Positions 10,501-57,519 of a stretch of DNA of 64,000 nt are shown piece by piece; position 1 is the stretch's first letter; every line of letters starts with the position of its first letter. A program made the translations under genes and the position numbers. The stretch comes from Marsupella aquatica (Eukaryota; Plantae; Marchantiophyta): assembly GCA_973895155.1 (NCBI GenBank), contig OZ316897.1, positions 20,984,260 through 21,048,259 of the forward strand, read 5' to 3'. A model generated the notes under the pieces. That model saw only the letters and a program-made list of their open reading frames with translations. It searched no databases and was not told the origin of the DNA.

Positions 10501-11184
10501 GCAAATTGAAACATATGCTACACCCTAACCTGGGCACAAACTCAGGTTAAGATAACCACATACAATATGATGGCCGAATGCTACAAATATCAAAATCAAT
10601 GGCAAAGTTTTAATTATGTGCATCTTTGGTGGAGTCTAGTAAAACCTTAATAAAAGAGGGAATACAATGTCCACAGAAAATGGTAAGCTGGCCCAAAATT
10701 TTATCAACCTTATCACTAGTGAGATGAAAGTACTCAAACAATGAATCAAACTTAAGTTTATGGAGCAAGTGACAAGGGGTTCTGCAGCTGAGGCCAGAGT
10801 TGTTCACTCCACGTAATGATGATACACATCGATAACTTTACTCCATCTTCTGTCATTTACTTTTTTCCTTCCTGGGTTGTGCTTCAGTTTTAACACAATG
10901 ATATACATTTAGGGCTTTACTCAATCTTCTGTCATTTATTTATCAGTGTCTCATTTCAGCAGGACCGCCACATTGTGTGTGACTTAGCAAAAGGTCATTA
11001 TATAGGCTATAACTAACGACTTAGAAGAAATTGTGCAAAACCATTAGGGTCTCTTAAATCCAACTTTGCACATTTTAAGAATGGAGAGGGTTTTCCAACT
11101 GATTATTTGAATATTCCAAAAAGAAAGGGGAAATATTATTACTTTTTTGCTTAAGTTTTAGGCTGTTCGAGACTATATTTTTGA

Positions 11185-11618
11185 AACTGCTATAATGGTG
11201 AATCCACCTTTCAGATTTTGTCTTATTCAAAGTTTTGGTGTCATATATTTTTATTTCAATGTGCCTTATCAAGGGGCAGCCTGTGTATAATATAAATTTT
11301 TATTTAATTTATGGACCCCTTTAATTTTAAGATTCTAGACTATTTTGAGCTTATTTTGGCAGCCCCCTTATAAATTTTGATGTTTGTGATTTATCAGAGA
11401 TGAAGAAATGGCTCCACCACTTGAACAAAGTATTTTCATGAGTGAGAGAAATGATTGTGTCTTAAGTTCCCCTTATGTTTTTCTTTTCTAAGTTTATGGT
11501 TTTTATTGAAATGGGTGTCATTCATGAGGACATTGAATTAAGTGCAGACATCGTAGCATCCTTGATTGTACTTTTCATTGGTCACTGTGCACCAATCCTT
11601 CTAGTTATGTTCTCATGA
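11185..11618 (+). repeat. Dispersed AT-rich repeat, copy 1 (inverted copy at ~56697-57130); probable non-autonomous TE fragment
   Basis: Colinear shared blocks such as CACCTTTCAGATTTTGTCTTATTCA, TTTTGGCAGCCCCCTTATAAA, ATGGGTGTCATTCATGAG and CATTGGTCACTGTGCAC match the reverse complement of 56697-57130. Confidence 0.85.
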
Positions 11619-21206: not shown

Positions 21207-24200
21207 ATGTACGTCTCGGCAGATCGGGCTAGGAAGCGGAGACGGGGGGAAAGGCTCTTTGGGATTCATACATTTGGAGACCCAGGATGCCCTTCTGATT
21301 ACGATGGACCGTTCAGAGATAACATAAAGGCATTTTTGGAAGAGTGCGCGGAACCTGAGCTATACAATATAGAGGGTATGCCTGCGTGGTCAATAGCGCT
21401 GGAGGAGTCCGACATTCATGGCTCGCGAGTGTCTTTGCTAGTGATTGAAGAAGGAATGCGGGATTCTCTTCATCCTCATTGCGACCATTGCCGGTGCATT
21501 GGTGAGCATCCCTTCCTCTTCCTATGGTGCTTGTCGAGGTCCACATTCTCCATCTGCTTCTCCTGTTCCCATGCTATGTCAAGCGTCCTGATTATGTGTT
21601 GCTGCATGGAGAATATCAATCAGGGACCAAAATTTACCTTAAGACAACAACCTTTACTATCTGATCAAGAGTGTACCTACATCTTGCAATTTGGGAACTC
21701 TTTGACGGAAGACACCCAGTTTCCTTGTCTATTACGTGGCATCCAATTCGTCAACATTTTTGTAGATCATCTAGTGTTCGATAGTAGAAATTGTTAGCGC
21801 GTTCGTTCTCGTTTTCGCACATCCAGTACTGACATGCGAAGATAATGTGCAGGTTGGAGTCATCACCCTGTATCGAATAAACGGTATCATTTCATCATTC
21901 CTGCCCCAGAACTTGACGATCGTCCTCTGGGGTTAGTGGGCCTGGTTGGAGGCAAAGTTTGTCCCAACTGCAACGATCCTATCCCTCCATCGTTATTCAG
22001 CTGTCAGTCATGTGGAGAAGAGGCCGTACTTGGAAGCATATTGGATTTGCAAAGCCATCTCCTCCATGGCGTCCTTCACTGCAACGGGTTTGGTCACCTC
22101 CTGCGCATCAATGGCAGAGAAAAAGGATCCAAGATGGCATCGGGAAGAGAAATAATGGATCTCTGGGATCGTATGTGTGCAATGCTCAGAGCTAGGTACA
22201 GTGGACCGTCTGCATTCAGTTTGTGCAATCGCATAAAACTTGATACTTCACCTCAATAGAGTCTCGTGTTGGCAAAAACCCAAGTCTTCTCAGGCAAACA
22301 ATACCTCGTTTAATTTCGTAACAAACGATGCATTCTACGTAGGACACGTTTTCGGAGTTTAAGTTGGCAGCCTGTCAAGACATTGTTGGCAGCAAGGGTA
22401 TTTTAGCCCTACTACGTGCCGCTATAATATATTGGTACTTGTAACACGTCCTTGCCAGGGCAACAACTGCATTGTAGTCCGAGTCTATTCACTTCAATTT
22501 GAGCACGTCCTAAGGCACAACTTGTGGGGCCCCCTCTCTCCTTGCCCATCCTGCCTTACCATGCTACCTCACCGACAACTGCATCCCATCCATGCACCAC
22601 AGACAAATCTGCTCCCCATTGAAGCTCCTCTCTGATAATTACACTCACTTGACGTTCGGCAATATTTTGTTAGTCTTGAAGGAGAACATGAAGTTCATGA
22701 ATGTCTAAATACTCGGCAGCTTGATTGTGGAACTAATTGAGTACTTCGCACGCTGCAAGTTTACATCAATCTGATTGGGTGTTTGATTGAATGTGTTTGT
22801 AATGACAGGAAGGTGAGCGTGGAAGACGTGGCTAAGAAGAGAACCCTCGAGTTTAGGCTTCTGCACTCCGTGGGCTATGGTGAATGCTGGTATGGAAGAT
22901 GGGATTACAAGTTTGGTCACGGAAGCTTTGGCATCACGCAACAAATGTACGTGAAGGCCATCGAGGCAATTCGTGGCATGCCGTTAAATGTCATGGTTCA
23001 ACATTTTGAAGGAGTGGATCAAGATGTACTTGCTATCGTTGCCATGTACCAACGTATCAGTGGACAAGCCCTTCAAACGGTAGGCGACTTGATTCGTTTC
23101 ATGATGGAGCTGAAAGCGAGACTGCCTCTTCATCCAGCGTCCAAGACTTTCTCCAAAAGCTCAAAGGAGTTCGAGAAGAAAAGTTCATGCGGAAATATTA
23201 ACAATGCCACCGCTGCCGACATGCCCTGCCGATGGTCTGTAAAGCGCTTGGACTTAGCTACGCAAGTGATTGTGGAAGCGTTGAAGAGCTGCGAAAAGAA
23301 ATGGATGCCTCGGCAGGACGTGCGAGATGCAGCAAGAGTCTACATTGGTGACACAGGTCTTTTGGATTTTGTCTTAAAGTCTTTGGGAAACAGGGTGGTT
23401 GGCGGTCACGTTGTACGCCGAGCTGTGAATCCCATTACCAAGGTTCTGGAATACAGCCTGGAAGATGTAAACAGCTCCACCGCCAACGTAAATCCTAGAG
23501 ATAGATGCCAACCTGAGCCTGTATGCGAGGTTGGCCGCGCGGAGGTTCTTCGAGACATTGTCTACATCTACAAGCATGTACTGGAAAGTTACAAGCCCGC
23601 ACGAAGAGGAATCAGAAGTGTTCTGACTGCTATTCCGACAGCAGCAAGGATAATCCTTGACACAAAGCAATTCATAAAGGATTATCGCGGAGAGATCACC
23701 CGCAAATGTGCTAACAATGAGTGGGACATGGACGACGACGAGATGCTCAGAGTGATGTGTACGGTCGTCTTGAAAGACGATGACCCAAGCCGCAATAGGC
23801 CGAGTCCCCCTGCAGAACTGGTGGTCCTTCCACCTCATGCTACCATTGGGGATTTGAAGCAGGAAGCACAGCGGGCTTTTCGTGAGACGTACCAGATCAT
23901 GCACAGCTTCGCGGTGGACTCGATTCCTGATCTTGACGGAGATGACGAAGATCTCTTATTTGGAACTATCGAATCAGGCTCAACTGTGATTGTCGAAGGA
24001 AGCGGAATTGACATGTGCAGCGACTGGCGCTACGAAGGAGGGAATGATAGCTGGATTGTAGACTGCCCTTGTGGAACCAAAGATGACGATGGCGAAAGGA
24101 TGATAGCTTGCGATGTGTGTGAGGTGTGGCAGCACACTCGATGTGGGGGTATTTCTGATCTGGATGCTATTCCCCTTCGTTTCCTGTGTCACCGTTGCGG

Positions 24201-24228
24201 AGTCAACCTATTTCATGCCATGCTTTGA
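21207..24228 (+). CDS. PHD-finger protein of the MALE STERILITY 1 / MALE MEIOCYTE DEATH 1 family; exons 21207-21501, 21853-22195, 22809-24228 (685 aa)
   Basis: GT-AG junctions keep frame (2058 nt). Motifs: FGDPGCP...GPFRDNI, CDHCRCIGWSHH, HLLHGVLHCNGFGHLL, MDLWDRMC, RDAARVYIGDTGLLDFVLKSL, PPAELVVLP, and C-terminal PHD VDCPCGTKDDDGERMIACDVCEVWQHTRC...FLCHRC. Confidence 0.95.
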
Positions 24229-30319: not shown

Positions 30320-30758
30320 TGTTGAGCATAGACGACGATCGCAACGGCAAGCCCATGAACCATCCAACGCACAATAGTCGACACAAGAGATACGTGGTTC
30401 ACCTCCTTGAGGCTACGTCCACGGGAACACACAAGAGAGCTTTACTGAACTCTAAGCCCGTCGGCTATACCGAGTCTCCACAGTGTAAGCTCTCCCTATC
30501 TCTCAAGTGGCTCCATAACAATGAGCCTTGGTTCTACCTCTCCAAGCACACATGCCTCTTATGATATAGTGTGCAACTTAGTTGTACCTAACCACATAGT
30601 TGTACCTAACCACATAGTTATACCTAATCACGTAGTTGTACCTAACCACATAGTTGTACCTAATCACGTAGTTGTACCTAACCACGTAGTTGTACCAACC
30701 CACGTTGTTGTACCAACCACGTCATACCTAACCTAGACGTAAGAGTAAATACCCAACA
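30320..30758 (-). repeat. 3' LTR (439 bp)
   Basis: TGTTGAGC...ACCCAACA; matches 36412-36850 except for two substitutions seen by eye. Confidence 0.97.
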
Positions 30759-30770
30759 ATCTTCCCCTTG
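30759..30770 (-). other. Polypurine tract
   Basis: Minus strand CAAGGGGAAGAT directly abutting the 3' LTR. Confidence 0.85.
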
Positions 30771-30949
30771 ACTCTGGTCTAGGGGAGAGTAATACTGCCA
30801 ATGTATATGATCCCTCAGCGGGAAGTTCTGGACAGAAACCAAACCGGTTTCCCTCTCTAACTAGAGCAAACCAGAACTAAGCCGTAGCCTAATACATAGG
30901 AATGAGGAAGAGCATATATCAGTAATTACAATGAATGTTTAAGAAAACT

Positions 30950-33900
30950 CTACTTGTGATGCAATTGCAAAACCTGCAATACGTCACGGTGTCTAGAGAA
31001 ACTCTCCAAAGGAATCACTTTGGTAAATGCGTCAGCCGGGTTGAGTTTACCATCAATCTTGACTAGCTCAAACAAATTATCAGACACAGCCTGCCTGATA
31101 AAATGGTACCTGACGTCAATGTGCTTCACTCTGCTGTCCATCACCTGGTTCACAGCAAGGTGGAGCGCACTTTGACTATCACAATGGAGCTTCACATTCC
31201 CCTGTGGCAATCCCATTTCAGTGATAAGTCTATCCAACCAAATCGCTTCCTTTGCTGCTTCTGCAGCTGCAACATACTCCGCTTCTGTAGTAGACTGAGC
31301 AATACACTTCTGCAAAGTAGACCTCCAACTTATGCATCCACCGCCAAGTGTGAACACGTATCCTGTTGTTGATCTCCTTCGGTCCAAATCTTGTCCATAG
31401 TCAGAATCTACATAGCCAATCAATGATCTAGCATTCTTTGCATTCGCATCAAATAAAAGACCATGATCCACGGTACCCTTCAAGTACCTGATAATCCACT
31501 TCACTGCTTCCCAGTGTACCTTCCCTGGATTCGACATGTACCTGCTCACCTTGCCCATAGCCATGGCAAGATCAGGTCTAGTGCAAGTCATCAAATACAT
31601 GAGACTCCCCACTGCCTTGTCATATGGAACCTTTGACATCAACCCCTTCTCTGTGTCATCCGTAGGACAGAACGCTGATGATAACTTGAAGTGTGGAGCC
31701 AACGGGGTACTTACTGGCTTGCTATTCTCCATGTTGAACCTTGCAATTACCTTCCTCGCATAACTGCTCTGCGTCAACCATAGCTTGCCAGCCTCCAAGT
31801 CCCTAGTGATCTCCATACCCAAAATCCTCTTAGCTGGCCCTAAGTCCTTCATCTTAAACTCTGCACTAAGCAGTGCCTTGAGCTTAACAATCTCAGACCT
31901 ATCCTTGGCTGCAATTAGCATGTCATCCACATAAAGTACTAAAACAATGAACCCAAAGACAACATTCTTCACCGGTTTCAAATACACACAAGGGTCAAAT
32001 ACACTTCTGTGAAAACCTTGTGACCGAATCCAATCGTCAAACCGCTTGTTCCACTGTCTTGGTGACTGCTTCAACCCATACAAGGATTTCAGCAATCTGC
32101 AAACCAATTCCTCCTGTCCTCTCTTCACAAAACCTAGCGGTTGTCTCATGAAGATCACCTCTTCCAATGTGCCATAGAGGAAAGCTGTGACAACATCCAT
32201 CTGATCTAGGAGCAGACCAAACATTACAACAAGTACACACAATAGTCGTATTGTAGAGTACTTAGCAACTGGTGAGAAGACCTCATTGTAATCCACACCT
32301 TTCTCTTGTGTGAATCCCTTTGCTACCAATCTAGCCTTGTAGACCTTCGATCCACCTCCTATGGAATTATCCTTCAGCTTGTAAATCCACTTGCTGTCCA
32401 CCACTTGCTGACCCTTAGGCAGCTTAACAAGCTCCCAAGTTTTGTTGTCCTTTAGTGACTGCATCTCCGTTTGCATTGCTGCAGTCCACTTCTGCTTCTC
32501 CTTTGAAGCACTTGCCTCATGAAATGAAGAAGGTTCTCCTTCTTCCAAAATTAACGCATCACCCTCATCATCAGTTGTAAAATCATCCTCTTGCAGTTGA
32601 GATGAATCAACCCACTGTCCATACCTTGATGGAGCGCGTACAGTGCGACCAGATGTTCTTCTAGCCGATGACTCCGGTTGATCTGCGTGTGCTGGTACAA
32701 TTTGAAGCTCAACAGCATCCACTTGCTGCTCACCAGCATCAACAAACTCCTCTGGTTCCTCTGGCACAGGAACCAGCTCCATAATTGGAGCAACTCCTTC
32801 TCTCCGGTCATGCACCTCATAACCAATCTCCCCCTCAACGAGATCCGGGATAGGAGATTTTCCTTTGTCAGTACGGGAGACCTGAGTATTCTCCCCCTCC
32901 TTCAATAATCTGGATTCATTAAAGGAAACATCCCTACTAACAACGAGCTTACAGGCAATAGGATCCCATAGCCTATAGGCTTTCACACCACTCTGGTACC
33001 CAAGAAAAACACATTTCCTGGAGGTAGGATCCAACTTGGTCCTATTCTGCTTTGGTGTGAGAGCATATGCATCACTTCCAAAAATTACCAAGCCATGATA
33101 GTCTGCTTGCCGCTTATAGCGCATCTCAAACGGCGTTTTGAAATTGATAGCACTAGAAGGAGAAAGATTTACCAAATAAGCTGCGGTATTGACAGCTTCT
33201 GCCCAAAATTCTTGTGGTAAACCTGATTGGCTCAACATACTCCGTGACCGCTCCAACAGTGTCCGATTGAGCCTCTCAGCGACACCATTCTGCTGCGGAG
33301 TATAAACTGTGGTGAGATGGCGAGTTATCCCCTGTTCTGAACAGTACTCTTCAAATTCCATTGAAGTGTACTCCCCGCCGTTGTCTGACCTCAGACTCTT
33401 CACCCTTGTATCCAAACACTTGATCGTGTTTCCAGTCTGATTCTCCACCTGGGCCTTCCACTTCTTAAAAATGGACAAGACATCAGACTTATGCGTCATG
33501 AAATAAATCCACACAAATCTTGAGTAATCATCAATAAATGATACATAGTACAACTTTCCAGAGTGTAAGGGAGTCGGGGATGGACCCCACACGTCACTAT
33601 GTATGTACTCAAGAACCGCTTTGGAACGATGAGTTCCAACACCAAAAGCACGACGATGCTGCTTTCCAAGAATGCAATGCTCACAAAACTCTAATTTACA
33701 AGATTGCAAATCAGAAATGAGTCCATTCTTCCGTAAGATAGCCAAACCCTTCTCACTCATGTGGCCTAGCCGTGAATGCCACAGTTGAGTCATCTCCTCG
33801 TGAGACTTGGTTACATTGGCCTCTCCACATACAGTATTGCCCTGTAACACATACAAATTCTTTTGTCTACTCCCCTTCAAAATCACTGTCTCTCCCGACC

Positions 33901-34222
33901 TGACTTGAAGTTCACCATCAATAACGCTCCATTGATGACCATTTGAATCCAACACACCGAGTGAAATCAGATTCTTACGCATGCCAGGTACATACCTGAC
34001 TCCGGACACTGTGCGCACAGCGTCATCAAACATTTGAATCTTCACAGACCCAATTCCCTCAATTTGACAGGAGTGATCATTTCCCATCAGAACTGAACCG
34101 TTTGAAATAGAGTAAGAACTGAAAAACTCACGAATGTAACAAATATGAAAAGAGCAAGCACAATCAAGAATCCACACATCATCTGCTCTCCTAGATGACG
34201 TGCACAGGGCATACCCCCGGCT
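30950..34222 (-). CDS. pol: Copia Pol (protease, GAG-pre-integrase, integrase, RT, RNase H); in frame with gag behind a UGA
   Basis: WILDCACSFH (PR); LWHSRLGH...CEHC, IHSDVWGP, LRSDNGGEY, QQNGVAER (INT); YKARLVAKG, QMDVVTAFL, LYVDDMLI (RT); GYVDSDY, STTEAEY, KHIDVRYHFIR (RNase H). Uninterrupted frame. Confidence 0.95.
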   Translation of the reverse strand, partial: SRGYALCTSSRRADDVWILDCACSFHICYIREFFSSYSISNGSVLMGNDHSCQIEGIGSVKIQMFDDAVRTVSGVRYVPGMRKNLISLGVLDSNGHQWSVIDGELQVRSGETVILKGSRQKNLYVLQGNTVCGEANVTKSHEEMTQLWHSRLGHMSEKGLAILRKNGLISDLQSCKLEFCEHCILGKQHRRAFGVGTHRSKAVLEYIHSDVWGPSPTPLHSGKLYYVSFIDDYSRFVWIYFMTHKSDVLSIFKKWKAQVENQTGNTIKCLDTRVKSLRSDNGGEYTSMEFEEYCSEQGITRHLTTVYTPQQNGVAERLNRTLLERSRSMLSQSGLPQEFWAEAVNTAAYLVNLSPSSAINFKTPFEMRYKRQADYHGLVIFGSDAYALTPKQNRTKLDPTSRKCVFLGYQSGVKAYRLWDPIACKLVVSRDVSFNESRLLKEGENTQVSRTDKGKSPIPDLVEGEIGYEVHDRREGVAPIMELVPVPEEPEEFVDAGEQQVDAVELQIVPAHADQPESSARRTSGRTVRAPSRYGQWVDSSQLQEDDFTTDDEGDALILEEGEPSSFHEASASKEKQKWTAAMQTEMQSLKDNKTWELVKLPKGQQVVDSKWIYKLKDNSIGGGSKVYKARLVAKGFTQEKGVDYNEVFSPVAKYSTIRLLCVLVVMFGLLLDQMDVVTAFLYGTLEEVIFMRQPLGFVKRGQEELVCRLLKSLYGLKQSPRQWNKRFDDWIRSQGFHRSVFDPCVYLKPVKNVVFGFIVLVLYVDDMLIAAKDRSEIVKLKALLSAEFKMKDLGPAKRILGMEITRDLEAGKLWLTQSSYARKVIARFNMENSKPVSTPLAPHFKLSSAFCPTDDTEKGLMSKVPYDKAVGSLMYLMTCTRPDLAMAMGKVSRYMSNPGKVHWEAVKWIIRYLKGTVDHGLLFDANAKNARSLIGYVDSDYGQDLDRRRSTTGYVFTLGGGCISWRSTLQKCIAQSTTEAEYVAAAEAAKEAIWLDRLITEMGLPQGNVKLHCDSQSALHLAVNQVMDSRVKHIDVRYHFIRQAVSDNLFELVKIDGKLNPADAFTKVIPLESFSRHRDVLQVLQLHHK

Positions 34223-35257
34223 TCATAAAACATACTCATCATTGAGTAAATCAGCTTCTCCATCAGCCCTAGCCACATTTGCCGATGAAGTTTCCGCTGC
34301 CTTTCCCTTACAGTCTCGCTTGAAGTGTCCAACTTGGTTGCACTTCCAACATGTCACCTGCCTCCTCTGAGGGGATTTACCCTTGGACTTAGATCTGGAT
34401 TTAGATCTAAACTGGGTTCTACGGTCCCCAGTTGGTCGTTGCATACTCCTCCCACGGTTAATATTGAGGGCAGCACCAGATGATGAAGGCTGTGACGTTA
34501 TGTGCATCTTCTGCTGAAGATCATCACTAAGCAGAGAACTTACCACGTCATTGTATGAAATGGTATCCCTATCACGATGCAACAACACTCGTGATAGGGA
34601 CTGGTAAGATGGAGGCAATGAACTAAGAAGCTGCAGAGCCTTCGTCTCATCATTCAAAGTCTCCCCAAGGTTTTCCAAGTCAACGACCATGTCGTTGAAA
34701 GCATCCACATGGTCTTGCAACTTCGTACCAGATTCCTTCATCCTGAAACTCATCAGTTTGTAGGAAGTGTAGAGCCGGTTCGACAACTCCTTGCGGTGAT
34801 ACTTGCTCTGCAATTCCGCAAATAAGGACATGCAATCCTTATGTGCACCCAACTCCTTGATGAAGGGAGGCATGAGATAGAGTGTAACACACCACACTCC
34901 CTGCTCCTGCATGCAGTCCCATTGTTTCTCATCAACATCGTCTTCACGAGGGCTCAGCAGTTGGCCCATCCCTGACGCATAAAGCACTCCCTTCACCTGC
35001 TTCTCCCATAGCAAGTAGTCAGAGCGCCCATCATACTTTGTCACTTCATACTTGGGTCCCCCAAACTTGAAAGTCCCCATCTTCTTCTTTACCGTGAGCT
35101 CCGGTAGTAGTACTGCTTCCTCCACCACACGCCGCACCGGTGATGGTATCGGTGTCACGTGCTCTTCCTCCTGCTCCTCTCTCTGCCCCTGAAACCTCCG
35201 CGGTGACCCTAGTGCTTCAAGTTCCACGTCTTCGAAAAACTCCTCCGAATCACTCAT
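34223..35257 (-). CDS. gag: Copia Gag (344 aa)
   Basis: KYEVTKYDGRSDYLLW start motif, LLSSLPPSY, and CCHC zinc knuckle CWKCNQVGHFKRDC; ends NDEYVL-UGA. Confidence 0.95.
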   Translation of the reverse strand: MSDSEEFFEDVELEALGSPRRFQGQREEQEEEHVTPIPSPVRRVVEEAVLLPELTVKKKMGTFKFGGPKYEVTKYDGRSDYLLWEKQVKGVLYASGMGQLLSPREDDVDEKQWDCMQEQGVWCVTLYLMPPFIKELGAHKDCMSLFAELQSKYHRKELSNRLYTSYKLMSFRMKESGTKLQDHVDAFNDMVVDLENLGETLNDETKALQLLSSLPPSYQSLSRVLLHRDRDTISYNDVVSSLLSDDLQQKMHITSQPSSSGAALNINRGRSMQRPTGDRRTQFRSKSRSKSKGKSPQRRQVTCWKCNQVGHFKRDCKGKAAETSSANVARADGEADLLNDEYVL

Positions 35258-36397
35258 ATGAGAAAGTCACAAAAAATGTTGTTTTTCACAACTTCTCAAA
35301 AAACTCGAAACTCAACACCGCCGCGTAGCCCACAAAGCTAGGAGTCCAATACTGAAAACCAAAATCAAAATCGAAATTTGACGGAAAAGTTATTCAAATT
35401 TCGGTCGAGGTGGGTAAAACCTTGGGAAACTCCCCCGTTTTGACCACCTCAGGGAATAACCGAAATACCAAGTACAACCCGTTGTCGGAATTGCGATGTG
35501 ATTGGTGCGCTGCATTGCCAACTTCAATGGCTACGACCTCGCCGAAAAATAACCAAAAAAGTTACCGTTCGGCGGATGAAATCTTTGTCGGACGGTCAAA
35601 AAATAGCTCTCTGGTTTTTTGGAATATTCTATGACCCTTGTACAGGCCCTGTGGGAATTTTGGAAGAACAATCGAGGGGCTGACATGTGTCCTCGAACCC
35701 CCAAAACCCCCTACCACCCTTCGTCGTCGAAATCTGGTCGCGCGCGCAGAAAATACACACGGCAGAATGTACCCCTCGACACCAAACGCAAGATATCTCA
35801 CTCGAGTTTTGACTAAATCAAGATCCGATTTCAGATTTGGAAACTAGACTCCGAGGTGATGAAGATCGATATAAGAAGCACCCAAAACGAGGAAAGAACG
35901 AGGGAGAAAAAAATTGGTAAAGATGACAGATTTCTCTCAATTGCCATAGCCAATTTCGAATCAGTTTTTCAAAGAGAAAAAAATGGTACCTTGTCAACAA
36001 TGAATGTTGATCAATTGCACTTGGTGTCGTCACCAAGTCCAACAAGGTAATTGATTTTGCTTAGCCTTCCTCTTTGCATCAAAGAGCCAATCCCGGACTC
36101 AAAAACAATCGTCTTGCCTCAATCTCTCCGTTGAGTCAAAACACTTGACGCTTCTCCCTCTGAGTCGATTGCCAACTTTCTTCACAAAATCCAGAACGAC
36201 GAAAACTTAGATCTCTCTGCACCACAAGCTCCGTTCAACGATTTCTTCACACCGTTAGAAAGCTCTTGCCCTGATCTATCCGTTGAGCCCATAAACTCCA
36301 AGTTCCATGCGATGGAACTCTGGAAAATCCACCAACACTCAACGCTGGAAAAACCATCATGAAATCCCGTCACGAACACACGTCACCTCCCAAGCAT

Positions 36398-36409
36398 GCT
36401 CTGATACCA
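36398..36409 (-). other. Primer-binding site for initiator tRNA-Met
   Basis: Minus strand TGGTATCAGAGC, 2 nt inside the 5' LTR boundary. Confidence 0.95.
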
Positions 36410-36411
36410 AT

Positions 36412-36850
36412 TGTTGAGCATAGACGACGATCGCAACGGCAAGCCCATGAACCATCCAACGCACAATAGTCGACACAAGAGATACGTGGTTCACCTCCTT
36501 GAGGCTACGTCCACGGGAACACACAAGAGAGCTTTACTGAACTCTAAGCCCGTCGGCTATACCGAGTCTCCACAGTGTAAGCTCTCCCTATCTCTCAAGT
36601 GGCTCCATAACAATGAGCCTTGGTTCTACCTCTCCAAGCACACATGCCTCTTATGATATAGTGTGCAACTTAGTTGTACCTAACCACATAGTTGTACCTA
36701 ACCACATAGTTGTACCTAATCACGTAGTTGTACCTAACCACATAGTTGTACCTAATCACGTAGTTGTACCTAACCACGTAGTTGTACCAACCCACGTTGT
36801 TGTACCAACCACGTTATACCTAACCTAGACGTAAGAGTAAATACCCAACA
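36412..36850 (-). repeat. 5' LTR (439 bp) with an 18-bp tandem array in U3
   Basis: Direct repeat of 30320-30758; ~8 copies of TAGTTGTACCTAAYCACR at ~36671-36813. Confidence 0.97.
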
Positions 36851-37881
36851 CCGGCCACCCCATCCTCAGCGATCCCACCCTTTTATGTCCATCGGGTTCC
36901 ATTGTCATTTCTCACCCCCGAAAGGCAAGTTTAGAGGTGACGGTTCACCGGCCTACACGACGGTGAGTCGGGATCCACCGGCAACTTTATCGCTTTTCTC
37001 AGTCCTTCGTTCCCCCCTGTCTGCTCGTTTTTGTGTTCTCTGTTGTTGCACCAAAAAATTCAACATCCTCGAAGACTGTCTATCAGTAGCGATGCAGTCC
37101 CGATGAAGTGTCGGTAGCGATTGTAGTCCCGATGCAGGTCTGATGAATGTATTTCAATTGCTGGCCATGTCGCTCAGGCAGAGCCAAGCTTACTGCCACA
37201 TATTTGTCGATGCAATATTAAACCAGATTACGTTGTGGTTGAAGCTTTAATTCAGTGAGGAGAAACAGCCATAGCTAGCGGCACCAAAAGAAAGGAAGCG
37301 AGAAAGAGCAAAGGCAAGAATCCAACTCTCGAGAACGAAGGTGAGAAAAGTGCTTCAGTTATCTTGATCTTCGTCAACGTTTTTTGATCAAATCTGCATG
37401 AAGAACATTGCTCTCTCCACTCGTGTCTGCCCACAACGCCACGGATGCCCGAACATTCGCCTGGCGCTCCACTTATGTATTTTCTGTGTTCGTTTCCGTG
37501 TAAAGAGGCACCGCTGCGTTTCTTCTCCACCTTCTCTGGCTGTTTGCGAATCTTTATTGCTCTGTCCACTTCCACCATTCAAAGACTAGATTGTACTTGA
37601 ATACCTCGTTTTGCAATACCGTTTCCTTGTCATAAATCTTACACTTAATCTCTGGTACTGTACTCTAGCTTGTCATTGATATCCTGATTACAGCCGTTTC
37701 TCAGCCATCTACTTCTCAATTGATTTTGTTGACGATGCAAATTTGGCAGTTCCAATTTGCCTACGATTGCTGAGAGATGTTACAAAATACCTCATGACAG
37801 TTGGATGTACCCCTAGGAGCACAGCCCGTCAACATGCTTGTTTCTAATATTTCTTCTGTTTTGGTTTTTCTTGTGTTAGAA

Positions 37882-47220: not shown

Positions 47221-50200
47221 TTACCCTTCAGAATCGTTGAGTCGACTTCTCGTAACCATAATCCTGTGTTTCCTTGTTAACCATTCTTCCAAGGCATCCT
47301 TGGCTACAGTAAGCCGCCCAAAATTCGTAGGCTTTCTCGCCAATATAGCGTCTGTGGACATACTCTTTTTCCTGGTATAGATGCCAGTGTCGGAAGATCT
47401 CTGAGCAGCCATTGGTGGACTTGTACCAAGAGGTAAGTTTTTTTCTAATGTACAGTCTGCATCTGTAGATCGGTGGTCTGCTTCTAAACCACCTTCAACG
47501 ACATGGTCTTCGCTGAACATCTGGGGTGGGACTTCATGCATTGTACGACTTTCACTTGAACCAAACATGACTGGCAGACGGAGTTCCTTTTCAAGAACAT
47601 GCAAAACAGCCTGGCGGATGATAGGCAATCCTGGGATTTCACTTCGCTTTCCTACTCCAGTGATAATCACTAGATCATCACTCACACCATAACCTGCACA
47701 ATTGATCGGTTGATTACAGTCTCGAATAACGTCGCACTTAGCAAAGGGCAATACCAATGGAGACTCCTCAAAGATTGAAAAGATCATAATTAGAAACGAA
47801 GCATACCTTGGTTGTGGCGTTCCTTGATAATCCGCAAAACTGCCAACACTGCAACTCGAGCCTCCCCCTGCATTGGCATTACCACTACGTGAGCCAGCTT
47901 GTGCATGTATCGCCTACCAGAAACAAATCCCATCCACTTTCCATTGTTTGGTTGCTCTATCTACGACTGTTCATCATGCACGATTACAACCTTTGTAGCA
48001 TTGACAACGGAATTACGTAAGGGCTTTCATTATCTGGTGATAAGGAGGCAAGCTGATAGATGTTCATCATGCACGATTACAACCTTTGTAGCATTGACAA
48101 CGGAATTACGTAAGGGCTTTCATTATCTGGTGATAAGGAGGCAAGCTGATAGATGCAGCTCCCTTGGCACCCAAACGTCAGGAAAAGGGGCCTGCAGACT
48201 TTAACGGAGTATTTTGTTCACTACCGTTGGTTTTAGCAAGGGACCCTGAATCAATTTGAGCCATCGTAAAAATCACCGGTTGCTAGATCTTATTCAGGGG
48301 AGTGATTGACCGTATTGAGAGATATGTAGGGCCGACGGTGATTCTAGGAAGTCTCACAGGAGTGCTCACCCTTGAGAGTCCATGCAGGTCAATCATCAGA
48401 TCTGGGACTGCTTCGAGCTCCTGGGCATGCACTCCCACTCGTTTCAATACTATCTTCAAGTATTCGGAGAAACCAGCTGATATCTCATTCTGGAATTTGA
48501 GAGAAAAGCGGGCACTTTTTTCCCCTTTACCACCATCTTCAATCGCAATTTCTGCCCACTGTGCCAGCAACACCCTCAAGAAGCCATCGTTTGGTGCATA
48601 TCTGCATTCACAAGAGATAGCTTTGGGGTTTAGCTTACTTCTCAATTCCCAGCCCCGACGTCTGGGAACCTTCGAGGACCATAGTTGTAACCAGAACTGG
48701 GCCATTCCAAACATGACTGACAGGAACGAACCACTGCTTTGAGAACTTTCTTGGGATTATACAACCACAAACAGCAAGTAACGGTCAAGCAGTTGATACC
48801 ACAAAAGTCCATAACAAACTGCATCTCTCACTCTCTGTTAGAACGCAGGCGCCCGACCATCAATGCTAACGATGAGGAACTTACCCGGCTTGACGCATCT
48901 CTTCATACAAAGCAAGTGCACGCTGGAGCTCACAGAGCTTTTGACAAGAGCGTTGAGCCCTGAAGAGTGTATAGTAGGTAACCTACAACAAATATTGCAG
49001 AAACCAATACAGCAAGAATAAACCACAAAATTAGAAACAACCAACCTTCCAGTTAACTGACTTTCACGAGTAGAATCAACTCCCGTCTGGAGTACCTTCA
49101 CTCCTAACATTACGTCTATCAGTTCCCCCTTATAGACGTTGTTCATATTCGAAGTTGACCTAGATTAACTAGTAGTACAATCGATATCTCCGGATAATGT
49201 CAAACATAAATTAGATATACAGATATTATCATTTTCGGTCATAACAACAGAGGAGCTCACCTTATTGGGCCGTAAGCCAGCCTCCTTCAACTGTCTGAAG
49301 TACTCGAATGCCATATCAGCATCTCCTGCCTCCACCGAAGCCTACTGACCATTGCCACCGCAAGTATATGAGACAATATTTACACCTTTTGACCCTACCA
49401 CCTCTTTGTGAAGCACCAGCCGCACATGTACAAAAAGGAGATTTCCTTACGACTTGCTAACGACCTTACGGCTACAAATTTCTTCTCACAACTTACAATC
49501 AAACGCAATCAAACCAAGCAGATGAACACCGAAGGAGACGAGGGGGTAATAATTAATGAAAACCGTGAGGCGATCAAAGGGAGAACATTCCCGACGTTTT
49601 CCATGAGCATTTATGCAAGGAAAAGGTTGTACTCACTTTGATTATGGATGTGTAGGCAATAAGATCTGGCGTGATCCCATTTTCCTTCATATTGTTAAAA
49701 AGCTGTAACCCATGATCAACAAAGCTGTATTATACTCCTGCTTCTTTAGGGCAAAACTGGCAAAACTGGGGACGGTATTTTCGTGGCAAGACAATCTATA
49801 CGTGTACATATCAAACTGGGAGAGATTTTAGCAAACGCGATGGACTGGGAAGACAAAGGTCCGCCGATGAGTACTGCTGCCAAGCAGATTGCCCTTGTTG
49901 GCCAATTGCAAAGGAGAAGCAGGGGGAGGTCTGAAAAAATGAATCAATCAATCAAATTATAAGCTGAGTAAGCTTACATTGATCGCCTCGTTCAGATCCC
50001 CTTTACTCCCATAAGAATCAATGTAAGTTGACCAACTTGTCAGATCAGGAGTCAGGCCAGCTGCCACTATATCAGACATGATCTGCTTTGCCATAATGGG
50101 ATCCTCCACACAGGACTTCATCAAAGTATTATATGTTACAAGATTCGGCTTTAAGAGAGGCATCATCCTGGATGAATTCTTAGTCGCAGTCGGACAAACA

Positions 50201-53200
50201 GATCTTTCCCCATCAGAGTCTAATTCTCGAATTTCGCCAGCAGACGACCTACTGTCTGAGACTGACTCGCTTAGCTCTGACTCCCTGTATGCAGAAATTT
50301 GCCCATTTTCTTTCCACTCGTTGAATATTTGAAAGGCTCTTTCATGCTGGCTCCCCTTGCAACAAGCATTGATGAGCAGATTGTAAGTTTGCTCATTTGG
50401 AGGACAGCCCGCGAACCACATCTCGTTGAAGAGACTAAATGCTTGGTCAACCATTCCCACATTTGCACACGCGCCGATCAATGCTGTCCACGTCATCACA
50501 TTGGGGACAACACCGGAAGCCGTCATGTCTTCCTTCACCTTCAGGGCTAGTTCCCACATTTTTGCATCCCCAAAAATCTGCCGACACCCATCAGATTCCA
50601 CAATCACTCAACCAGAAGTTGTGAATAATTTGTGTAAGGACTTAATAACACTCAAATTGACCCAAAACTTCAGCCTTCTGTGCAAAGCATCATAATGAGT
50701 GACTGGAGAATTCACTTGTCCTGTGTAAGGAAAATACAAAAAGTCTCAGAGAGTCTGGTCTTCGACGATACATCAATGATGGTTGTGTAAGTGAAAAGGT
50801 CCAGCTTCAAGCTGTTCGAGGCTGCACGGCTCTCCATGTCGTTGTACAAAGATTTCGCCTTTTCATGGTTTTTTGATAGACCGCAGGACTTTAACATAAT
50901 GTTGAACGTAGCCAAATCAGGTTCCACACCCAAAGTCTGTGATAAGCAGCAGGATACGTTAAGAGCAAGGACAAGGTGGTCGACTGAGATCAAGAATACA
51001 AGTCTTAAGTGAAATGCACATTCTATGTGACAGATAACGCATGCATGCCGTGTTAGGGGTGCTCACCTGCATGTCGAGATACAATTGCCACACTTCATCT
51101 GTATCCTCGGCACGCACATTCATGAAGCTATTGCAAACGTACACATTGGGGATGCTTCCCGAGGACAAAATGTCCTGAAACATTGGAAGCAGGGAAAAGA
51201 AAGTTCAATTTACTGCACCTGACATGGACGACACAGCACAGCAGTTCTTGGCTACAATTAAAACCCATGGCATTCACAAATATTTACCAGTAGAAGTCCA
51301 GCAGGTAAATATGCTTCCCAATCTCTCTACAGAGGACACAGAATAAAGCTTCAGGACCGAGTTGGCAACTCATACCTCGAAAACAGAAACAGCCTTAGCA
51401 ATCTCCCCATGTTGAGCACAGGCGTCAATCAGACTTCTGTACGAATACATGTCTGCTTGGATGCCAGACTCTCTCATCGTGCTAAAAGCAGTCAAGACAG
51501 ATTCTAAGTCACCATGCTGGCTAAATTCATGCATAATAAAGTTGTAGTGCAGGTTCACCATCGGTAATAGTCGAGCATATCTGCAAAATCGTACAAAACG
51601 ATAAGACCAAGCTGGCGATGGACCTTCAAATTTTCAAGTGGGGTGGTTGTGGTAGACCCTCCGCAAGGCTAGACATTCTTGAAACCGAACAACAACAAAT
51701 TCAGCCATTCCTAATGATGCCAGCCCAGTGATATTTAGGATGGGCTATCAATATTCTTGTGAAGAAAGGACAGAAGCTTGAAAGTAGTTCTACGACTCTC
51801 ATAATGCCTTCACCACACCGTATATTGCAAAACTAGGGACACATTGCAACTCAGGATTAAAGGAGAAGTTTTAGTTGATGAATGATCCAGACTGCACTTT
51901 GGCTACCTGATTGCGGAACAAGCGATCAAAAAACCTCAGATAGTCTGGTTCATGCATGTTGTTAGTATCTAGAAATTCTCTGGTCTGTAGCGAGACCGAC
52001 TCCTGGCTACCACCCATATGTGTTGCACAGAAGTCCCTTCGAAGCGAAACTTACGGAATCAATGAGGCGGAACCCAATCAACGTGAATCTAGCAACATGA
52101 AGGCATCTGGCCAACTTATCTGCTGGCACTTGAGAAAGGAAATACGTCATTGGATCAGACGCTACAAGAGTAGCAAGGGATATAGTAGGGTAACGAGGGA
52201 AGACGAGGTGGGGTGGGGATTGAAGCCAGTAGGTTTTGTACTGGATTCTGTTACCAGTCACAGGGAGGGTGGGGATAGGAAGAAAGTAGATTTTGTACCG
52301 GATTTGGTCATTGGTCAGGTGGAATTGATTCAAGGTTTCTCCTCCAACATTAGGCCCTCACAATAGCTCCAACGGCTTCCTCAGAGGTGACATTCCCTCT
52401 CGAGAGTCCTACGTACTTCCATTGCAAAGCCTTGTAGACCCCCTTGTGCATTTCCTCGTGAGAAAGGCCCGCGGTCTTTGCTGAGGTGTTTTGTCTAGTT
52501 TTCAATCTATTGTGTACTTGTCGGATGACTTATTTTAAAAGTTTATACCATTGTTTTTATCCGGCTCATAACCCAATTCCAAGACCGTGTTTGCTTGTAT
52601 CCAAGTTTTTGCAGAATCGCAAAGAACTCCACGATGTTGGTTTGCCACAACCACGCAGAGAAAGCAGGTTTTCGGTCTAAAGGATAAAGAGAAGTTGTCA
52701 CCTCTGAGGAAGACGTTGGCAGCAAACCCATTCAAACGAAAACGTGAGGACCCACTATTGAGCAAGAGCACAGTGAAGAGATGCCAACAGCGGCGATAGA
52801 ACAATTTAGACAGGTTTACAACTGAAAGGGAGCAATGTCAACTAGTAGAACTCACTTGGACCATGGCAAAGAGGAAAGCGAATATGCATCTTCCAGCTAT
52901 TCTAGGCAGAAAAACGATAATCGTTCAGATGGAAAGGAAATTCCAAGGAAGATGCGAGCAGTAACATTCCACAGCAAGGTGTTCTTCGAGAGTGGAGAAA
53001 TTGAAGATCTTCCTGGAGATTCAGATGAAAAGGCAATCAGGATATCTAGCTCTGACATTAAAGAGGAAAATGATCTGCCTAATACGGACACTTCTCACCA
53101 CTTCTTCCGTTGGGAGGGCTTACAATCTCACGAATCTCAATCCGAAATTGAGAGAACAGCCGGAATAGCAGGTGATGAGGATACCAAAGCCGAGGACGAA

Positions 53201-56696: not shown

Positions 56697-57130
56697 ATGA
56701 GAACATAGCTAGAAGGATTTGTGCACAGTGACCAATGAAAAGTATAATCAAGGATGGTATTATGTGTGCACTTAATTCAATGTACTCATGAATGACACCC
56801 ATTTTAATAAAAACCATAAACTTAGGAAAGAAAGACATGAGGAGAACTTAAGACACAATCAGAATCATTTCTCTCATACATGAGAATGTTCCAGTGATGG
56901 AGCAGTTTATTTCATCTCTAATAAATCACAAACCTTAAAATTTATAAGGGGGCTGCCAAAATATGTTCAAAATACTTTACAATACTACAAATTAATGGGG
57001 TCCATAAATTAATTAAAAATGTATATGATACACAGGCTGCCCCTTCATAAGGCACATTGAAATACAAATATATGACACCAAAACTCTGAATAAGACAAAA
57101 TCTGAAAGGTGTATTCACCATTATAGCAGT
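56697..57130 (-). repeat. Dispersed repeat, copy 2 (inverted relative to 11185-11618)
   Basis: Reverse-complement similarity to 11185-11618 across ~430 bp. Confidence 0.85.
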
Positions 57131-57519
57131 TTCAAAAAGTTTCTTGACATGCCTAATCACTTCTGATTCTAAGCAAGTCTAAGCAACTACTCAACCTAAT
57201 TAATTTCTTACCTTCATTAAAAAATTGGCAGTCAAAAAATCAAATCTATCCCCACTACCCGACCCTCCCATACACCCCATTTGCCATGAGGTCCCACTAC
57301 TACTCAACTTCATTTTATTCAGTCAACAAATTTATGACTCTCTTGCCTTGCAGCTACACTCTCCAGTCTCCCTAGCCCTTCCTCTGGCTCCCCATCACCA
57401 GTCTGTGAAGCTCATGTAAATGTTCTGCTCAGGTGGGAGAGTCGTGAGATGAATTCATGAAGAGAGAGGTGGGTGTAGTTGCAATGGGAGCATGGCGGTG
57501 CCTGGCTGGCCAGCAGTTC

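What the first reader, a model, noticed from the sequence alone, without database searches (positions are those of the whole stretch)
34148..34225. Copia gag-UGA-pol junction followed by a predicted H-type pseudoknot: candidate programmed stop-codon readthrough
Seen (minus strand): GAG UAU GUU UUA UGA AGC CGG GGG UAU GCC CUG UGC ACG UCA UCU AGG AGA GCA GAU GAU GUG UGG AUU CUU GAU UGU GCU UGC UCU UUU. Gag ends at UGA 34225-34223 and pol continues in the same frame with no AUG before the protease active site. This is the only stop in ~4.3 kb of coding sequence, it falls at the Gag/protease boundary, and the LTRs differ at only ~2 of 439 positions. 20 nt downstream is stem 1, CACGUCAUCU (34202-34193) / AGAUGAUGUG (34184-34175). 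Its loop AGGAGAGC is complementary (with G:U) to GCUCUUUU (34155-34148) after a 19-nt linker. A small CGGGG/CCCUG hairpin can form in the spacer. Known: gammaretroviruses such as MuLV read through a gag stop using a downstream pseudoknot, whereas plant copia elements usually have one gag-pol ORF and make excess Gag by splicing. Inference: this family sets its Gag:Pol ratio by pseudoknot-stimulated UGA readthrough. The spacer is longer than MuLV's 8 nt, so the mechanism may differ.
Basis: partly seen in the sequence, partly recalled or inferred. Interest (0 to 1): 0.88.

Follow-up and report, generated by a model that had tools for sequence, protein, structure and literature searches.

The report
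Bryophyte copia clade with gag stop
A young, intact jumping gene ends its coat gene (gag) with a UGA stop right before its enzyme gene (pol), and its diverged relatives, including ones from liverworts, end gag at the same place, so this group likely makes its enzymes when ribosomes occasionally read through the stop; that trick is known from other retroelements, and the proposed RNA pseudoknot is only weakly supported.

Summary
The element is a young Tork-like copia (LTRs differ at 2 of 439 bases, 5-bp target duplication) with one stop in 4,308 coding bases. Of 30 Gag relatives at 40% identity or more with a zinc knuckle, 24 end at the matching residue and 0 run into the protease; fused relatives are at most 39% identical. 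The only named members are liverwort proteins. Two diverged loci keep TGA, in-frame pol and the same nine bases around the stop. Pol is most likely made by UGA readthrough (0.68; inferred, no RNA or protein data). The hairpin 20 nt downstream is partly kept; the pseudoknot's second stem is no better than synonymous controls and lies beyond the 8-nt spacer of MuLV. The layout is known (MuLV, Tca2, Tj1; 10% of SIRE copia); I found no paper on it in bryophyte or Tork-like elements. This scan noted the same layout before in fungal and diatom copia on other DNA. New variant of a known kind.

The parts
36412..36850 (-). 5' LTR, 439 bp, TG...CA, with an 18-nt tandem array
36398..36409 (-). primer-binding site of the initiator-Met tRNA type (type recalled, not tested against a tRNA)
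34226..35257 (-). gag ORF, 344 aa, Retrotran_gag_2 and CCHC zinc knuckle
34565..34601 (-). predicted hairpin inside gag, 340-376 nt before the stop, kept with two-sided changes in both diverged loci; role unknown
34219..34227 (-). nine bases around the stop that are identical in the window, L001 and L002
34223..34225 (-). in-frame UGA between gag and pol, conserved in the clade
34205..34219 (-). small spacer hairpin, not conserved
34175..34202 (-). stem 1 hairpin (10-12 bp, 8-nt loop), partly conserved
34148..34155 (-). proposed 3' strand of pseudoknot stem 2, weakly supported; encodes part of the protease motif
30950..34222 (-). pol reading frame, 1,090 codons, protease-integrase-RT-RNase H order, open throughout
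30759..30772 (-). polypurine tract before the 3' LTR
30320..30758 (-). 3' LTR, 439 bp; flanked, like the 5' LTR, by the GCCGG target-site duplication

Best explanation
The UGA at 34225-34223 is the inherited end of gag in a clade of Tork-like copia retrotransposons whose only named members come from liverworts, and Pol is likely made when a small share of ribosomes read through it. Most ribosomes would stop and release Gag; a few would insert an amino acid and go on to make Gag-Pol, which sets the Gag:Pol ratio from one RNA without the intron that Arabidopsis copia elements use. The signal is likely the conserved local context (Leu codon ending in A, UGA, then AGC-C), perhaps helped by the hairpin 20 nt downstream; a MuLV-type pseudoknot is possible but not needed to explain the data. 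Shown: the stop, its conservation, the in-frame pol, the context. Inferred: readthrough and any role of RNA structure.
For: 24 of 30 Gag relatives (40% identity or more, with knuckle) end at the matching Leu and 0 of 30 continue into the protease. They form one branch of 25 rows, SH-aLRT 100, with no fused row (quick tree). Three searches that could return fused forms gave none above 39% Gag identity. L001 and L002 (64% and 71% nucleotide identity to the window in gag) both have TGA, pol in the same frame and an unchanged 16-codon distance to the protease Trp. Residues are conserved on both sides of the stop. No AUG and no shared near-cognate start lies between the stop and the protease Asp. 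The element is young with all catalytic motifs present, and the family is very deep in runs X1 and X2 with no change at the stop among the 40 best-supported rows. A contig from organism D has 0 differences in 82 bases across the stop and stem 1 and 19 in the next 98 bases (p 7e-6; one contig). In-frame stops are read through or required in MuLV and Tj1, and UGA-AGC is the readthrough context of mosquito kelch.
Against: No RNA, ribosome or protein data were available. The context fits none of the Beier-Grimm types. In Tca2 the junction with a predicted pseudoknot did not direct readthrough in a yeast reporter and held a weak promoter, so this layout does not prove readthrough. An AG sits two bases after the stop in all three loci, so splicing is not excluded. 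A nine-base three-way identical run is not rare: 2 such runs in 409 aligned gag columns. Only three junction DNA sequences were compared, L002 is decayed (a private stop 10 codons earlier), and L001 and L002 match two of the counted proteins (P0012, P0020). 33 variant rows were hidden, and appears to leave out about 30 bases at each end, so a minority of copies with a sense codon is not excluded.
Confidence: 0.68

Rival explanations
1. A minor spliced RNA removes the stop, as the intron between the two ORFs of Ogre elements does, using the AG two bases after the UGA as acceptor.
For: That AG is the one acceptor shared by all three loci. Ogre elements splice out the region between their ORFs (PMC6317226). 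Copia elements of Arabidopsis use splicing at the Gag/protease boundary (PMC5580714).
Against: The shared AG needs a phase-2 donor; none of the three loci has one scoring 4 of 6 or more within the gag stretch scanned (up to 900 nt). The good donor at -318 is phase 0, is missing in L001, and has no in-phase acceptor in the window. The 80 nt before the stop are only 26-29% U. Gag residues are conserved right up to the stop.
Confidence: 0.1
2. Pol is made apart from Gag, from an internal promoter or by reinitiation or non-AUG initiation near the stop.
For: Tca2 has a weak promoter in its junction. The A before the stop creates an AUGA stop/start overlap in all three loci.
Against: The overlapping AUG opens only an 11-15 codon frame that is not the pol frame. 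The first in-frame AUG lies behind the protease Asp. No near-cognate start codon is shared by the three loci. Pol normally needs Gag fusion for packaging (recalled).
Confidence: 0.1
3. Readthrough depends on a MuLV-like H-type pseudoknot. This is a special case of the best explanation, and its share is counted inside it.
For: In the window all 10 stem-1 and 8 stem-2 pairs can form. Stem 1 keeps 9 of 10 pairs in L001 with one two-sided change, and 7 of 10 in L002. L002 can form a 6-bp loop duplex at the same place. Sliding the partners lowers pairing from 75% to 36-58%. The commonest stem-1 change in the family (12% in X1, 48% in X2) keeps its pair.
Against: Stem 2 is not above synonymous controls in any locus (p 0.06-0.54); stem 1 is not in L002 (p 0.30). 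Pair-breaking changes reach 8% in stem 1 and 13-18% in stem 2 of family depth. Known stimulators start about 8 nt after the stop and the entry channel holds about 11-12 nt; this one starts at 18-20 nt. 32 of 500 shuffles reach the observed pairing, on three related sequences. No Rfam match.
Confidence: 0.17
4. The ribosome gets past the stop by a hop or paired frameshifts, or the RNA is edited at the stop.
For: A bypass was proposed for Sirevirus gag/pol junctions (PMC2829016 citing Gao et al. 2003); Tca2 bypass is called non-canonical.
Against: Frame and spacing are exactly kept in all three loci; I saw no shared slippery heptamer (by eye); nuclear stop-codon editing is not established in land plants (recalled).
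Confidence: 0.08
5. The stop is a private nonsense mutation, or the family is a non-autonomous one served by a single-frame helper.
For: 33 variant rows were hidden; tallies exclude only 5 of the 9 single-base changes at 3% in X1 and 6 of 9 in X2 (my reading).
Against: The same end in 24 of 30 diverged Gag proteins and no fused member; TGA in L001 and L002; pol is intact in the window.
Confidence: 0.04

Closest known systems
Tca2 of Candida albicans (Ty1/copia; PMC2194720, abstract and Background read)
   Same: Copia element; gag and pol in one frame split by UGA; predicted downstream pseudoknot.
   Different: Fungal host; 8-nt purine-rich spacer against 18-20 nt here; its junction did not direct readthrough in a yeast reporter.
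Moloney murine leukaemia virus and other gammaretroviruses (passages of PMC3159437 and PMC13517186)
   Same: One in-frame stop at the Gag/protease boundary; structure predicted downstream.
   Different: UAG-G, 8-nt spacer and a proven compact pseudoknot; here UGA-A, a longer spacer and a poorly conserved second stem.
Tj1, Tcry1, Tosmo1-3 of fission yeasts (Ty3/gypsy; passages of PMC10085805)
   Same: Clade-wide in-frame TGA with a short, strictly conserved context; A before the stop.
   Different: Gypsy superfamily; UGA-CU context, a known leaky type.
Plant lineages in the REXdb survey (PMC6317226; section 13, passages and Additional file 5 read)
   Same: GAG-stop-PROT is listed for SIRE copia (22 elements, 10%), Chlamyvir (80%), Athila (12%) and Tekay (10%). 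Tork shares the Met primer site, 5-bp duplication and size range.
   Different: Tork is listed as one ORF (69%) with no stop form; Bryco uses a half-tRNA primer and its layout was not determined. Additional files 1 and 3 were too large to read and may list single elements of this clade.
Spliced Arabidopsis copia such as EVD (passages of PMC5580714)
   Same: Same need for excess Gag, solved at the same boundary.
   Different: One gag-pol ORF; splicing creates the Gag stop. Here the stop is genomic.
kelch readthrough in mosquitoes (passage of PMC3159437)
   Same: UGA-AGC context.
   Different: Cellular animal gene; in Drosophila the stem follows an 8-nt spacer.

Membership tests
Ty1/copia LTR retrotransposon | Gag, protease, integrase, RT, RNase H in that order | tested here: met
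   Pfam hits; motifs
Ty1/copia LTR retrotransposon | LTR pair, primer site, polypurine tract, target-site duplication | tested here: met
Tork lineage | Placement of RT/RH/INT domains inside Tork in a reference tree | not tested
   The reference sequences could not be read. Best full-length pol hits are 45-54% identical and include proteins named after TNT 1-94; hence 'Tork-like' only.
Tork lineage | Full Met-tRNA primer site, 5-bp duplication, 4.2-8.8 kb | tested here: met
   element is 6,531 bp; shared with other lineages
Tork lineage | Prevailing single gag-pol ORF (a tendency, not a strict criterion) | tested here: not met
Bryco lineage | Half-tRNA-Met primer site | tested here: not met
   (primer type read by eye)
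Retroelements with gag-stop-pol readthrough | One in-frame stop at the Gag/protease boundary, conserved among relatives | tested here: met
Retroelements with gag-stop-pol readthrough | Gag-Pol fusion made by decoding the stop | not testable with these tools
   No RNA holder listed; no protein data
Type III (gammaretroviral) readthrough signal | UAG-G stop context | tested here: not met
   UGA-A
Type III (gammaretroviral) readthrough signal | 8-nt purine-rich spacer | tested here: not met
   18-20 nt
Type III (gammaretroviral) readthrough signal | Conserved H-type pseudoknot | tested here: inconclusive
   Three sequences; stem 1 partly kept, stem 2 not above controls
Type I and II readthrough signals | UAG-CAR-YYA, or UGA-CUA / UGA-CGG | tested here: not met

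The most novel reading that the evidence does not exclude
An old clade of land-plant copia elements, present in both thalloid and leafy liverworts, replaced the splicing strategy of its single-ORF relatives by readthrough of a fixed UGA, using a signal outside the three known classes: UGA-AGC plus RNA structure at an unusual distance (the hairpin or pseudoknot 20 nt downstream, perhaps with the conserved gag hairpin 350 nt upstream).
Probability: 0.3. Interest if true: 0.72.

Novelty: new variant of a known kind. Interest (0 to 1): 0.52.

Why it matters
Plant copia elements are thought to have one gag-pol frame and to make extra Gag by splicing. A whole clade with a fixed stop shows a second solution in land plants and a switch of strategy inside one lineage. 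A member exists in Marchantia polymorpha, a model plant, so the readthrough signal can be tested with a simple reporter. In practice, annotation tools will call every member of this clade broken, which understates active elements in bryophyte genomes.

Tried and rejected
No whole genome is held, so sister copies could not be aligned. No RNA holder listed. One search was meant to test the stop at 1%, but its table lists only 34172-34220 and omits known variants near the ends, so I do not count it for the stop. Viral contigs: no relative by protein; 26 of 26 pattern matches were unrelated. Prokaryote genomes: nothing. Of 29 metagenome loci only L001 and L002 belong to the clade. Rfam: no match. 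The careful tree did not finish; the quick tree was used, with 45 of 122 fused rows and without rows lacking a knuckle or with under 170 aligned residues. Gao et al. 2003 is not held; I know it only through citing passages. Paper searches with no report of this layout in bryophytes. Rejected: private mutation; the small spacer hairpin as a conserved signal; selenocysteine (land plants lack the machinery, recalled); the AUGA overlap as a pol start.

Full report
Observation. The stop lies in a complete copia element at 30320-36850 on the minus strand: 439-bp LTRs that differ at 2 positions, a GCCGG target-site duplication, a Met-type primer site and a polypurine tract. Gag (344 aa) carries the copia Gag domain and a zinc knuckle; pol (1,090 codons) carries protease, integrase and RT domains. 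The UGA is the one internal stop in 4,308 coding bases, and the first in-frame Met lies 26 residues behind the protease Asp.

Is the stop private? No genome is held, so I used relatives. A Gag search limited to 189-602 aa gave 34 proteins; most end in an acidic stretch followed by Tyr-Val/Ala-Leu, like the window. Because that search cannot show fused forms, I added a search for longer proteins (only the 7,989 best candidates scored), a pol search (120 of 3,300 listed) and a profile search with no length limit (best 150). Among the 312 proteins so gathered, 30 have a knuckle and at least 40% identity over 100 or more residues: 24 end at the matching Leu, 0 continue into the protease, and 6 end elsewhere. 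Fused proteins reach at most 39%; those with names come from seed plants. A quick tree of 88 rows puts the window in a branch of 25 rows, SH-aLRT 100, with no fused member (no bootstrap, 45 of 122 fused rows used). The named members are from Calypogeia fissa and Marchantia polymorpha. The host of the window is therefore likely a bryophyte; I did not determine it.

DNA of relatives. Of 29 metagenome loci, two belong to the clade. L001 and L002 both have TGA at the same place, pol in the same frame and the same number of codons to the protease motif. Nine bases around the stop are identical in all three, although such runs occur twice in 409 aligned gag columns. L002 is decayed, and both loci match proteins already counted. 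In sequencing runs the family is very deep in organisms A and B; no change at the stop is among the 40 best-supported rows, while a 74% variant elsewhere is, but 33 rows are hidden. The tallies exclude 5 of 9 single-base changes at 3% in X1 and 6 of 9 in X2 (my reading). One contig each from organisms C and D has no difference across the stop (the C contig may be this DNA's source); the D contig has 0 differences in 82 bases over the junction and 19 in the next 98 (p 7e-6).

The structure. Stem 1 forms in the window and beats synonymous re-encodings (p 0.007); L001 keeps 9 of 10 pairs with one two-sided change (energy p 0.04); L002 keeps 7 of 10 (p 0.30). The peptide alone gives about 6 of 10 pairs. 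Within the family the commonest stem-1 change keeps its pair (12% in X1, 48% in X2), but others break pairs (8%, 2%, 2%, 1%). Stem 2 keeps 4 of 8 and 6 of 8 pairs and is not above controls in any locus; a change that breaks one of its pairs reaches 13% and 18%. The whole loop cannot pair at once in an H-type fold (recalled), so 6-7 pairs is the ceiling. Comparable patterns occur at 4 places in the coding region. Known stimulators begin about 8 nt after the stop and the ribosome's entry channel holds 11-12 nt (passages); this stem begins at 18-20 nt. A hairpin inside gag is better conserved than the junction one.

Mechanism. Pol must be made, since the element is young and intact and the clade is widespread. 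Readthrough is the simplest route: frame, spacing, stop identity and flanking residues are all kept, and no start codon is available. Splicing lacks a matching donor, and the stop/start overlap opens the wrong frame. The caution is Tca2, where a similar junction failed in a reporter (abstract). I put readthrough at 0.68, of which a pseudoknot-dependent form is about 0.17; splicing 0.10; separate initiation 0.10; hop or editing 0.08; private or non-autonomous 0.04.

Comparison with what is known. An in-frame stop between gag and pol is known from MuLV, Tca2 and Tj1. The plant survey lists it for 10% of SIRE copia and for some gypsy lineages, but not for Tork, and could not determine it for the moss lineage Bryco (Additional file 5; two larger supplements could not be read). 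The context matches none of the three classical types, but UGA-AGC is the readthrough context of mosquito kelch. Seven paper searches found no report for bryophyte or Tork-like elements; the library lacks many papers, including Gao et al. 2003. This scan noted the same layout in fungal and diatom copia on other DNA (unchecked notes) and had no look-alike of this Gag.

Verdict. Real, clade-wide feature; likely UGA readthrough; pseudoknot unproven and probably not the core signal. New variant of a known kind, interest 0.52.

Noticed in passing
window 34601-34565 and 34564-34542 (minus): The strongest local structure of the element (z -5.4, best of 170 windows) lies in gag. Its first hairpin is kept in L001 and L002 with three two-sided changes and beats synonymous controls in all three (p 0.0015, 0.047, 0.017; the window value is post hoc). 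It is better supported than the junction hairpin; a packaging or dimerisation signal is a guess.
   Followed up: partly
L008, about 484-1260: A 2-kb element with LTR-like ends and gag only (27% identity); its gag ends with the same TTA-TGA-AG letters but no protease follows. Probably chance.
   Followed up: partly
window 34226-34223 (minus): AUGA stop/start overlap opening an 11-15 codon frame in all three loci.
   Followed up: partly
window 34543 area (minus), 318 nt before the stop: Strong splice-donor-like site, also in L002, not in L001.
   Followed up: partly
window 30522-30772 and 36614-36864: 18-nt tandem array in both LTRs, likely promoter repeats.
   Followed up: no
window 35258-36397: Unusually long leader of about 1.1 kb between the primer site and the gag AUG.
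   Followed up: no
window 11178-11616 and 56697-57138: Inverted repeat arms of 80-95% complementarity 45 kb apart, perhaps two copies of a small element.
   Followed up: no
window 22741-24228 (+) and 49957-50607 (-): Host plant genes: a PHD-finger gene with an At1g33420-like domain, and a PPR-repeat frame.
   Followed up: no
window 47968-48153: Exact 93-nt tandem duplication.
   Followed up: no
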